DNA of 64,000 bases from Nannocystis bainbridge. Its GTDB lineage: Bacteria > Myxococcota_A > Polyangia > Nannocystales > Nannocystaceae. How positions within the stretch are numbered: position 1 is the first letter of the stretch; every line of letters starts with the position of its first letter. The translations under genes and the position numbers were made by a program. Of the stretch, positions 12,733 through 15,045 are shown in pieces. The DNA lies in contig NZ_JAQNDL010000003.1 of assembly GCF_028368995.1 (NCBI RefSeq), forward strand, positions 544,001 to 608,000, written 5' to 3'. The notes under the pieces are model-generated. The model was not told where the DNA came from. It did not search any database and saw only the letters and a program-made list of their open reading frames with translations.

Positions 12733-15045
<2,313 letters not shown>

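What the first reader, a model, noticed from the sequence alone, without database searches (positions are those of the whole stretch)
14719..14742. The 14-bp motif is overprinted on a conserved helicase motif using rare codons
Seen: the SUV3-family segment R-G-H-V-F-T-D-R-L is encoded CGC GGA CAT GTC TTT ACG GAC AGG TTG. It uses GGA, CAT, TTT, AGG and TTG in a gene otherwise almost all G/C at third positions, and these choices create two decamers 14 bp apart (cores 14722 and 14736). A second 3-unit array lies in the same gene (13385/13399/13413). Inference: the motif is maintained at DNA level by synonymous codon choice and is not an inserted mobile repeat here.
Basis: partly seen in the sequence, partly recalled or inferred. 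Interest (0 to 1): 0.8.

Follow-up and report, generated by a model that had tools for sequence, protein, structure and literature searches.

The report
Genomic repeat written into helicase codons
A short palindromic DNA repeat that litters the ends of genes in this bacterium has also been written into a conserved stretch of a helicase gene purely by swapping synonymous codons, which shows that something acting on the DNA sequence itself can override the genome's strong codon preference.

Summary
Codons 101-109 of a Suv3-type helicase (window 12733-15045, minus strand; GC3 0.949) read CGC GGA CAT GTC TTT ACG GAC AGG TTG, the gene's only rare-codon cluster. The motif belongs to a real family restricted to this genus. 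CATG-CATG distances of 14 bp occur 3,736 times, against 72 at 13 bp. Arrays lie mainly at gene 3' ends.

The helicase copy is not an insertion. The peptide RGHVFTDRL is conserved without indels. Orthologs at 66-77% identity use ordinary codons (GGG CAC GTG TTC ACC GAC CGC CTG). Six genomes of the close clade carry the motif. All 7 nucleotide differences raise the motif score (-6.8 to 22.9 bits). The observed encoding ranks 3-4 of 18,432 synonymous encodings.

Genome-wide, in-gene motif pairs number 268 against about 8 in synonymous shuffles. 137 of 618 G-H-V tripeptides are encoded GGACATGTC (1.2 expected).

Corrections:
- TTT lies in the spacer and is private to this genome.
- TTG is near-neutral for the motif.
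- Unusual synonymous conservation within the close clade could not be shown, because the clade is too shallow.
- The natural unit may be a 14-bp palindrome, TGYCC-N4-GGRCA.

The function is unproven. I favour recognition by a sequence-specific factor.

The parts
12733..15045 (-). Suv3-type DExQ helicase gene, 770 aa, GC3 0.949. It hosts both in-gene arrays.
   Evidence: ORF list; translation; Pfam DEXQc_Suv3 E 4e-25 and Helicase_C E 3.8e-9; GC3; orthologs in 10 of 11 genomes of the genus at E<=1e-100
14719..14742 (.). In-gene element at codons 102-109. The gene strand reads GGACA TGTCT TTAC GGACA GGTTG: three good half-sites (14 of 15 specified positions of GGRCA-TGYCC-N4-GGRCA) and a weak fourth. 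Read as decamers: 14733-14742 scores 14.8 bits, 14719-14728 scores 8.1 bits, and the spacer is 14729-14732.
13382..13419 (.). Second in-gene array at codons 543-555, three units in 14-bp register (8.7, 15.9 and 7.4 bits). There is no indel against orthologs, but the amino acids differ from the 66% clade (LADMSMGAGS versus L-G-E-x-F-G-A-G-A). The rare codon GCA is kept in 5 of 5 close genomes.
12661..12712 (.). Intergenic array of 4 units that begins about 20 nt beyond the helicase stop codon. This is the family's typical position at a gene 3' end.
   Evidence: present but rearranged in G005 and G010; positional statistics
15335..15400 (.). Intergenic array of 5 units about 290 nt upstream of the helicase start, in the 933-bp gap before the divergent peptidase M3 gene (15978-18020, +).

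Best explanation
What it is. The helicase site is a genuine in-gene member of a genus-restricted, highly abundant repeat family. The family is built from 5-bp half-sites GGRCA/TGYCC arranged as alternating inverted repeats with gaps of 0 and 4 bp. This gives a 14-bp period that can be read as decamers GGRCATGYCC plus a 4-nt spacer, or as abutting 14-bp palindromes TGYCC-N4-GGRCA.

How it arose (shown). In the ancestor of one sub-clade of the genus, seven synonymous nucleotide substitutions converted an ordinary GC-ending encoding of the conserved peptide G-H-V-F-T-D-R-L into essentially the best motif match that the amino acids allow. The cost was the rare codons GGA, CAT and AGG. No residue changed and nothing was inserted.

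What drove it (inferred). The force acts on nucleotide sequence identity, not on translation and not on generic hairpin stability. I think the most likely agent is a sequence-specific factor, probably a dimeric double-strand DNA-binding protein. One dimer would sit on each TGYCC-N4-GGRCA, and neighbouring dimers would abut at 14-bp phase. The same factor would occupy the intergenic arrays at gene 3' ends. In-gene copies would then be retained because binding there is useful or tolerated. The factor and the benefit are inferred and have not been shown.
For: The family is real:
- CATG-CATG spacing of 14 bp occurs 3,736 times, against 72 at 13 bp and 262 at 15 bp.
- GGACATGTCC occurs 956 times.
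- TGYCC-N4-GGRCA occurs 2,828 times and GGRCA-N0-TGYCC 1,771 times, against 23-93 at other spacings.
- The two-unit pattern occurs 330 times in G000, 134-229 times in each of five close-clade genomes, 0-21 times in five more distant same-genus genomes, and 0 times in 30 genomes of 30 other genera.

The state is derived and the change was directional:
- 6 of 6 close-clade genomes read GGA CAT GTC TTY ACG GAC AGG YTG. Four orthologs of the 66% clade and a 77% metagenome relative use ordinary GC-ending codons of the GGG CAC GTG TTC ACC GAC CGC CTG type, with minor synonymous variation.
- Among 26 metagenome orthologs with the identical peptide, none uses AGG and the highest pair score is 10.7, against 22.9 here.
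- All 7 differences raise the score, by 2.1 to 7.6 bits each.
- The observed encoding ranks 3-4 of 18,432. The probability mass of equal or better encodings under genome codon usage is 7.8e-6.

The selection is for sequence, not for a hairpin or a pause:
- By folding energy the observed 24-mer ranks 1,873 of 18,432.
- The mRNA hairpin is -10.3 kcal/mol with z -0.94.
- Of 5,696 encodings with 5 or more rare codons, only 1 reaches the observed motif score.

The effect is genome-wide. These counts rest on my own crude gene calls:
- In confident gene interiors there are 604 strong hits, against 143-163 in 4 synonymous shuffles.
- There are 268 pairs, against 6-9 in the shuffles.
- In the GGA-CAT-GTC frame there are 200 hits, against 4-14.
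- 137 of 618 G-H-V tripeptides are encoded GGACATGTC, where 1.2 are expected.

Long-term retention is seen at another in-gene unit. ACA GGT in gene 50017..52218 is kept in 3 of 4 orthologs of the 66% clade (6 of 6 codon cells), against a baseline of 19 of 116 for other rare codons.

Two soil-metagenome contigs that cover the site differ only at 14713 and at 14731, the spacer.
Against: - No binding protein is identified and no experiment exists.
- Conservation of the three rare codons within the close clade is not statistically unusual (69% conditional baseline).
- Adjacent units show a modest excess of complementarity. The position 3 by position 8 table is AT 834, AC 237, GT 186, GC 119, an odds ratio of about 2.25. 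Independent half-site recognition by one homodimer does not predict this. Base pairing, or symmetric repair of palindromes, does.
- The family's 3'-end position suits an RNA or terminator role at least as well as a DNA-binding role. 44.7% of convergent gaps carry an array, against 8.3% of divergent gaps, and arrays lie a median 47 nt from the upstream stop codon.
- Only a minority of permissive peptides are converted. 44 of 96 G-H-V-x-x-D peptides are not motif-encoded, and most motif-encoded G-H-V look array-derived. The pressure is therefore not uniform.
- The genome-wide counts rest on my own ORF and codon-score gene calls, not on a curated annotation.
Confidence: 0.55

Rival explanations
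1. Molecular drive without local function. Motif-improving mutations are preferentially fixed genome-wide by a biased process and are filtered only by protein constraint. Candidate processes are biased repair or conversion templated by the thousands of other copies, or uptake bias as for USS/DUS. On this view the helicase copy does nothing where it sits.
For: - Hundreds of in-gene copies are spread evenly along genes. Relative-position deciles hold 31-89 of 565 hits.
- In variable regions the motif dictates the amino acids, giving G-H-V-x-x-D-M-S type peptides and D-M-S-M in the second helicase array.
- The remaining mismatches at the helicase site need an amino-acid change, apart from the Leu codon (0.15 bits).
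- Within-clade conservation is not above baseline.
- USS/DUS show that such a drive can double the frequency of motif-encoded tripeptides (abstract of PMC2817400).
Against: - Coding density is about 15 times lower than intergenic density, 72 against 1,072 strong hits per Mb. Uptake sequences are far less skewed: the section listing of PMC2817400 shows 34.5-65% of them in ORFs.
- The ancestral helicase sequence matched too poorly to seed homologous conversion (-6.8 bits).
- In-gene arrays cluster in particular genes. 60 genes have 2 or more, where about 17 are expected.
- One in-gene unit is retained across the deep split of the genus.
- Competence or any conversion bias is untested.
Confidence: 0.27
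2. RNA-level element. Adjacent half-sites or units pair into a hairpin in the helicase mRNA, which attenuates transcription, marks a processing site, or binds an RNA-binding protein. The intergenic arrays would then act as 3'-end hairpins.
For: - The family sits at gene 3' ends.
- Inter-unit complementarity is above independence at all variable positions, for example 0.634 against 0.575.
- The sense strand folds better than the antisense strand at the site, -10.3 against -5.7 kcal/mol.
- Units of the G/U-compatible type exceed the A/C type on the sense strand, 349 against 244.
Against: - The hairpin is no better than shuffled sequence: z -0.94, with 30 of 200 shuffles folding as well.
- The observed encoding is ordinary by MFE (rank 1,873 of 18,432) although it is extreme by motif match.
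- Counted per array, the strand bias is not significant (165 against 141, with 376 ties), and no T tract follows arrays.
- There is no terminator-like site in 12000-16000 and no Rfam family in the window.
- Spacers show no strand-specific tetraloop preference.
Confidence: 0.12
3. A rare-codon cluster selected for translational pausing, or arising by chance, which resembles the repeat only by coincidence.
For: The cluster lies just after helicase motif II, a plausible boundary for co-translational folding (inference only). Further rare codons follow it (CGA, CGA, GGT).
Against: - Orthologs with the same peptide use common codons.
- Only 1 of 5,696 encodings with 5 or more rare codons reaches the motif score.
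- In-gene pairs number 268 against 6-9 in shuffles.
- A second array lies in the same gene.
Confidence: 0.04
4. A mobile repeat inserted in frame (a MITE- or REP-like insertion).
For: Three 14-bp units make 42 bp, which is in frame. Some in-gene arrays in variable regions could have arisen this way.
Against: There is no indel at either helicase array in any ortholog, and the peptide is ancestral.
Confidence: 0.02

Closest known systems
HIP1 (GCGATCGC), the highly iterated palindrome of cyanobacteria (Xu, Lawrence and Durand 2018, PMC5861425; abstract and outline read)
   Same: A short palindrome that is lineage-restricted and over-represented by orders of magnitude. It is present inside ORFs through codon choice. 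Its function is unknown, and a role at the DNA or nucleoid level is favoured over peptide, RNA or gene-regulation roles.
   Different: HIP1 is a single octamer that is abundant within genes. The motif here is phased at 14 bp in tandem arrays, is about 15 times denser between genes than within them, and is concentrated at gene 3' ends. Conservation between genomes is reported for HIP1. At the helicase site it could not be shown.
DNA uptake sequences USS/DUS of Pasteurellaceae and Neisseriaceae (Findlay and Redfield 2009, PMC2817400; abstract and outline read)
   Same: Hundreds to thousands of copies. Coding-region copies raise the frequency of the tripeptides they encode. Copies sit preferentially at poorly conserved positions. 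Accumulation can be explained by drive plus protein constraint.
   Different: According to that abstract, uptake sequences favour reading frames that use preferred codons. Here the largest enrichments are in the frames that need rare codons (200 against 4-14, and 50 against 0-2). The helicase copy lies on a highly conserved peptide. Uptake sequences have no tandem 14-bp phasing. Competence is unknown for this organism.
REP/BIME elements with RAYT transposases
   Same: Palindromic, extragenic, clustered at the 3' ends of genes and between convergent genes, variable in copy number between relatives.
   Different: No Y1 transposase (PF01797) was found in any of the 11 genomes of the genus, although the control genomes gave hits. 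The unit is a 5-bp half-site lattice rather than a 20-40 bp imperfect palindrome. The consensus has no GTAG or CGTC head (the head motif is taken from the abstract of PMC3733652 in the listing). REPs are by definition extragenic.
Tandem palindromic operator arrays (MetJ met-boxes) and 5-N4-5 dimer sites of CRP/FNR-type regulators. Recalled from general knowledge; not checked by any search.
   Same: Geometry. A 14-bp palindrome with 5-bp arms and a 4-bp centre, and abutting repeats that would seat successive dimers at a fixed phase.
   Different: Those are a few operator sites upstream of regulated genes. Here there are thousands of sites, mostly downstream of genes, and no protein is identified.
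Intrinsic (hairpin plus U-tract) terminators
   Same: Position just after stop codons and in convergent gaps. Potential to form a stem-loop.
   Different: No U/T tract follows. Arrays are direct multi-unit repeats. There is no significant strand asymmetry.

Membership tests
14-bp-phased GGRCA/TGYCC repeat family of this genus (defined here) | Half-sites or decamers that match the family consensus | tested here: met
   Units score 14.8 and 8.1 bits. As half-sites the site reads GGACA TGTCT N4 GGACA, 14 of 15 specified positions.
14-bp-phased GGRCA/TGYCC repeat family of this genus (defined here) | Exact 14-bp register between units | tested here: met
   Cores start at 14722 and 14736, and at 13385, 13399 and 13413. 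Genome-wide, 14 bp occurs 3,736 times against 72 at 13 bp.
14-bp-phased GGRCA/TGYCC repeat family of this genus (defined here) | Occurs only in genomes that carry the family | tested here: met
   The helicase motif is present in 6 of 6 close-clade genomes, which hold 134-330 two-unit pattern matches each. It is absent from 4 of 4 orthologs of the 66% clade, which hold 3-21 matches, and from the other genera, which hold 0.
14-bp-phased GGRCA/TGYCC repeat family of this genus (defined here) | Typical location in gaps at gene 3' ends | tested here: not met
   This copy lies at codons 102-109 of a 770-codon gene. In-gene copies are a minority class: 443 arrays in 365 of 7,690 called genes.
REP/RAYT system | A cognate Y1 (RAYT) transposase gene in the genome | tested here: not met
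   PF01797 gave 0 matches in G000 and in the 10 other genomes of the genus. 6 of 14 control genomes gave hits.
REP/RAYT system | Extragenic imperfect palindrome of 20-40 bp with a conserved GTAG or CGTC head | tested here: not met
   The family consensus has neither head, and this copy is intragenic. The definition of the head comes from the abstract shown (PMC3733652).
DNA uptake sequences (USS/DUS) | Natural competence with sequence-biased uptake | not testable with these tools
   No experiment is available, and competence genes were not searched.
DNA uptake sequences (USS/DUS) | Coding copies favour frames that use preferred codons | tested here: not met
   Enrichment is about 22-fold in the GGA-CAT-GTC frame and about 50-fold in the ACA-TGT frame, against about 2.5-fold in the GAC-ATG-TCC frame.
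Intrinsic terminator | G+C-rich hairpin followed by a U tract | tested here: not met
   No T enrichment beyond spacer-like composition downstream of 682 arrays in tandem gaps. 0 terminator-like sites in 12000-16000.
Rfam RNA families | Match at the gathering score | tested here: not met
   0 matches in the whole window.
Suv3-type DExQ helicase (the host gene) | DEXQc_Suv3 domain plus Helicase_C | tested here: met
   E 4e-25 and 3.8e-9, both above the Pfam cut-offs.

The most novel reading that the evidence does not exclude
A lineage-specific DNA-binding factor reads a 14-bp-phased lattice of GGRCA/TGYCC half-sites at several thousand places. These lie mostly at transcription-unit ends, where the factor could act as a roadblock or terminator, a topological barrier or a nucleoid organiser. 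Selection for its sites would be strong enough to recode even an invariant helicase motif with the genome's rarest codons. The in-gene sites would then be functional control points, for example attenuation or roadblock within the helicase gene, which carries arrays upstream, twice inside, and just downstream. That would amount to a second, DNA-level code laid over the protein code in an 11-Mb genome.
Probability: 0.3. Interest if true: 0.8.

Novelty: new variant of a known kind. Interest (0 to 1): 0.64.

Why it matters
Hyper-abundant short motifs overprinted on coding sequence are known, for example HIP1, USS/DUS and Chi. For most of them the force that writes them is still debated.

This case is unusually clean:
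- The peptide is invariant across distant orthologs.
- The ancestral codons are known.
- All seven changes go towards the motif, and the result is essentially the best match the amino acids allow.
- It works against a GC3 of 0.95.
- It coincides phylogenetically with the expansion of the repeat family.

This makes the question 'selection for a bound site, or mutational drive?' directly testable by recoding a single 24-bp stretch.

It also brings to light a repeat family that I could not find described. It has thousands of copies and is restricted to one genus. It marks gene 3' ends in very large, high-GC genomes that lack canonical terminators. It also accounts for a tenth to a third of the strongest rare-codon clusters in the genome. 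That last point matters for codon-usage analyses, for gene prediction and for heterologous expression of genes from these organisms.

Tried and rejected
I did not try it again, and no earlier finding was used.

Expression data. The look-up of sequencing runs found no run holding half or more of the stretch's words. The rows on record or guessed as RNA held small shares (0.05-0.11), and all runs were kept as contigs. Transcript ends therefore could not be examined. Read laying on four soil-metagenome DNA runs gave only two contigs across the site. They are of limited value because they are near-identical to the window.

Unusual synonymous conservation in the close clade. A first comparison looked significant: rare codons in motif cores were kept in 32 of 43 pairwise cells, against 825 of 2,066 elsewhere (Fisher p 1e-5). 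I reject it as evidence for constraint. 127 of 276 ordinary rare codons are private to G000. Once I conditioned on being ancestral, retention was 73 of 106.

'Fraction of synonymously achievable gain'. 288 of 443 in-gene pairs realise 95% or more. This is biased by ascertainment, because the pairs were selected by score, and I do not use it as support.

RNA hairpin tests. Fold z-scores were -0.94 to -1.31. Strand bias per array was 165 against 141. Spacers showed no tetraloop signal. There was no T tract and no Rfam hit. None of these supports a hairpin. A first version of the covariation table used a wrong expectation and was redone.

REP/RAYT. PF01797 was not found in the genus.

More orthologs at intermediate divergence. 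The genus holds only 11 genomes in the collection. The metagenome scan gave one relative at 77% and the rest at 63% or below.

Literature. Four searches found no description of this repeat (terms Sorangium, tandem repeat, intergenic, palindromic, repetitive extragenic palindromic, the decamer, myxobacteria, Polyangiaceae, 14-bp). In PMC3372372 the two passages found mention only genome size. The genus name used as a search term is my guess from genome size and G+C and is not verified by any search. Supplements were not consulted.

Gene calls. No annotation was available. All coding, intergenic and frame statistics use my own caller, which scores ORFs by codon log-odds (8,102 genes, 84.4% of bases). 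The window's calls for the helicase, the peptidase M3, an alpha/beta hydrolase and a steroid dehydrogenase-like gene agree with Pfam.
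Full report
THE OBSERVATION

Window 14716-14742, read on the minus strand, is CGC GGA CAT GTC TTT ACG GAC AGG TTG. It encodes R-G-H-V-F-T-D-R-L, residues 101-109 of the 770-aa ORF 12733..15045(-). Pfam finds DEXQc_Suv3 (E 4e-25, residues 5-134) and Helicase_C. The segment follows the DEIQ box.

The gene's GC3 is 0.949. 42 of its 771 codons are rare by my definition (share below 0.12 among synonyms). The only 9-codon windows with 4 or more rare codons start at codons 100-109. Codon shares are GGA 0.029, CAT 0.111, TTT 0.041, AGG 0.028 and TTG 0.042.

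THE MOTIF FAMILY

The window lies in an 11.05-Mb assembly of 5 contigs with 71-72% G+C.

Abundance and phasing:
- Tandem Repeats Finder lists period-14 arrays at seven places in the window.
- Genome-wide, the distance between CATG tetramers is 14 bp 3,736 times, against 72 at 13 bp and 262 at 15 bp. There are further peaks at 28 bp (2,073) and 42 bp (1,584).
- The palindrome GGACATGTCC occurs 956 times. From base composition I expect about 9 (my arithmetic).

Consensus. I built an unbiased frequency matrix from the 2,073 units that lie between two CATG cores 28 bp apart. It gives GGRCATGYCC plus a 4-nt spacer richer in A/T. The core is CATG in 1,670 units, CCTG in 70 and CAGG in 62.

Natural unit. 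Counting half-sites shows that the natural unit may be different from the decamer. TGYCC-N4-GGRCA occurs 2,828 times and GGRCA-N0-TGYCC 1,771 times, while all other spacings give 23-93. The family is therefore a lattice of 5-bp half-sites in alternating inverted orientation with gaps of 4 and 0. More lattices end on a complete 14-bp palindrome than on a complete decamer.

Where the arrays lie. These figures use my own gene calls (ORFs scored by codon log-odds; 8,102 genes).
- Strong hits number 1,072 per Mb between genes and 72 per Mb inside confident genes.
- 44.7% of 1,410 convergent gaps hold an array, against 13.2% of 4,231 tandem gaps and 8.3% of 1,427 divergent gaps.
- In tandem gaps the arrays lie a median 47 nt from the upstream stop codon and 194 nt from the next start.

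The family therefore marks gene 3' ends.

Distribution among genomes. The family is genus-restricted. A two-unit pattern matches 330 times in G000, 134-229 times in five genomes of the close clade, 0-21 times in five more distant and more fragmented genomes of the same genus, and 0 times in 30 genomes of 30 other genera. Orthologous intergenic arrays in four close relatives sit at the same places but differ in copy number and spacer.

I found no description in four literature searches. There is no Rfam match and no RAYT gene in the genus.

THE HELICASE COPY IS A DERIVED, PURELY SYNONYMOUS OVERPRINT

On the PWM the two units score 14.8 and 8.1 bits. In half-site terms the gene strand reads GGACA TGTCT TTAC GGACA GGTTG, which matches 14 of the 15 specified positions of GGRCA-TGYCC-N4-GGRCA. 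The one mismatch is forced by the Phe codon.

The peptide is ancestral:
- 19 genome orthologs carry RGH[VTI]F... with no indel.
- 67 of 80 metagenome loci have the segment, and 26 have the identical peptide.

The DNA motif is not ancestral:
- The six close-clade genomes (89-94% aa identity, plus the frameshifted G007 copy) read GGA CAT GTC TTY ACG GAC AGG YTG.
- The four orthologs of the 66% clade use ordinary GC-ending codons of the GGG CAC GTG TTC ACC GAC CGC CTG type, with minor synonymous variation. A 77% metagenome relative reads GGC CAC GTG TTC ACC GAC CGC CTG.
- None of the 26 same-peptide metagenome orthologs uses AGG. Their best pair score is 10.7, against 22.9 here.

The change was directional:
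- Each of the 7 nucleotide differences raises the score, by 2.1 to 7.6 bits, from -6.8 to 22.9 in total.
- Among all 18,432 synonymous encodings of G-H-V-F-T-D-R-L the observed one ranks 3-4 (maximum 23.07). Encodings at least as good carry a probability mass of 7.8e-6 under the genome's codon usage.
- Every remaining mismatch would need an amino-acid change, except Leu, where CTC would gain 0.15 bits.

TTT lies in the spacer and is private to this genome; four relatives and one soil contig have TTC. TTG is near-neutral. GGA, CAT and AGG are the rare codons that matter, together with the common GTC and ACG, which are chosen over GTG and ACC.

THE SECOND ARRAY

The second array (13382-13419) also has no indel. 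There the amino acids themselves differ from the 66% clade (L-A-D-M-S-M-G-A-G-S against L-G-E-x-F-G-A-G-A). The flanking units vary within the close clade (GTA/GTG/GTT and GGT/GGG/GGC), while the rare GCA is kept in 5 of 5 genomes. Where the protein tolerates it, the motif also changes residues.

IS IT MORE THAN CHANCE, GENOME-WIDE?

I shuffled synonymous codons within each of 7,690 confident genes, four times. Observed against shuffled:
- Strong hits: 604 against 143-163.
- Strong hits with a partner at +/-14: 268 against 6-9.
- Hits in the GGA-CAT-GTC frame: 200 against 4-14.
- Hits in the ACA-TGT frame: 50 against 0-2.
- Hits in the GAC-ATG-TCC frame: 354 against 133-159.

Of 618 G-H-V tripeptides, 137 are encoded GGACATGTC, where 1.2 are expected. 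52 of 96 G-H-V-x-x-D peptides are so encoded. Many of these continue as D-M-S, which shows that the array dictated the peptide.

The share of 9-codon windows that overlap a motif pair is 0.02% with no rare codon, 10% with five, 17% with six and 33% with eight. The test is partly circular, because two of the three frames of the motif need A/T at third positions.

In-gene arrays number 443 in 365 genes. They are spread evenly along genes and clustered by gene: 60 genes have two or more, where about 17 are expected. The helicase is one of these genes.

IS IT MAINTAINED?

In the close clade, 9-16% of same-residue codons differ. Rare codons elsewhere in the window are kept in all four relatives in 73 of 274 cases. 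Most of the rest are private to G000. Among those shared with the most distant close relative, 73 of 106 are kept in the other three. Keeping GGA, CAT and AGG is therefore unremarkable (about 0.33).

One older case does argue for long-term retention. In gene 50017..52218 the unit GGACAGGTCC uses the rare codons ACA and GGT, and these are kept in 3 of 4 orthologs of the 66% clade (6 of 6 codon cells). The baseline is 19 of 116 for other rare codons across the two genes compared.

WHAT KIND OF FORCE?

Translation pausing is unlikely. Of 5,696 encodings with five or more rare codons, only one reaches the observed score.

A generic hairpin is unlikely:
- The sense-strand fold is -10.3 kcal/mol with z -0.94.
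- The observed encoding ranks 1,873 of 18,432 by MFE and within the top 416 by in-register pairing, against 3-4 by consensus match.
- Arrays show no significant strand bias (165 against 141 arrays) and no T tract.
- Spacers show no strand-specific tetraloop preference.

I therefore favour sequence-specific recognition. The 5-N4-5 geometry suits a dimeric DNA-binding protein with successive dimers abutting every 14 bp. This is inference, and the analogy with CRP/FNR-type sites and MetJ met-box arrays is recalled, not tested.

Two observations cut the other way. Adjacent units are somewhat more complementary than independence predicts: the position 3 by position 8 table reads AT 834, AC 237, GT 186, GC 119 in 1,515 arrays. 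The 3'-end location would also suit an RNA role.

A drive without local function, as proposed for uptake sequences (abstract of PMC2817400), explains the even spread and the amino-acid-dictating copies. It fits poorly with three findings: the 15-fold depletion in genes, the clustering by gene, and the poor ancestral match at the helicase site.

COMPARISON WITH KNOWN SYSTEMS AND VERDICT

The closest analogues are HIP1 in cyanobacteria (abstract of PMC5861425) and USS/DUS. The case works like these, as an abundant lineage-specific word overprinted on genes. It differs in three ways: the 14-bp phasing, the concentration at gene 3' ends, and the use of rare-codon frames. It fails the REP/RAYT and intrinsic-terminator membership tests.

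I rate it a new variant of a known kind. The overprint itself is well supported (about 0.85 in my judgement). The proposed reader of the motif and any local function remain open.

Noticed in passing
window 51041-51064 (gene 50017..52218, minus strand): An in-gene pair, GGACCTGTCC AATA GGACATGGCC. Its rare codons ACA and GGT (and TAT/TTT) are kept in 3 of 4 orthologs of the distant (56-59% identity) same-genus clade. This in-gene unit appears to predate the split of the genus, unlike the helicase copy.
   Followed up: partly
window 5950-5973 (gene 3308..7138, plus strand): An in-gene pair, GGACATGTCT TACG GGACAGGTTC, almost the same DNA as the helicase pair but in another reading frame (peptide [10 protein letters not shown]). 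It lies in a region that varies between the close relatives.
   Followed up: partly
window 58631-58750: A tandem repeat with a 42-bp period, 2.9 copies. Each 42-bp unit contains motif-like units (GGACCTGTCC and CATGTCC). 42 bp is three 14-bp periods, and also a whole number of codons and four helical turns.
   Followed up: no
L010 and L047 (G007:C2, helicase ortholog): In G007 the helicase reads in three different frames (residues 1-95, 95-289 and 287-770). The first break lies a few codons before the motif. This may be assembly indels in an 80%-complete genome, or a real pseudogene.
   Followed up: no
window 15046-15977: A 933-bp gap without a convincing gene lies between the divergent helicase and peptidase M3 genes. 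It holds a 5-unit array (15335-15400), which is unusual because the family avoids divergent gaps. An unannotated small gene or RNA ending there is possible.
   Followed up: no
window 57557-57773: Nested tandem repeats with periods of 15, 18, 27, 30 and 60 bp, rich in ACC/GAC/TCG. They look like a low-complexity Thr/Asp/Ser-type coding repeat and are unrelated to the 14-bp family.
   Followed up: no
window 1-64000: GC skew is negative (-0.08 to -0.21) up to about 36 kb. It is near zero from 36 to 50 kb and negative again after 50 kb. This was not examined against gene orientation.
   Followed up: no
G000 C3:1012874-1015292 and C4:257611-261505: Two called genes carry 6 and 5 separate in-gene arrays, far above expectation. 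They may be unusually tolerant proteins, or non-coding stretches that my gene caller called wrongly.
   Followed up: no
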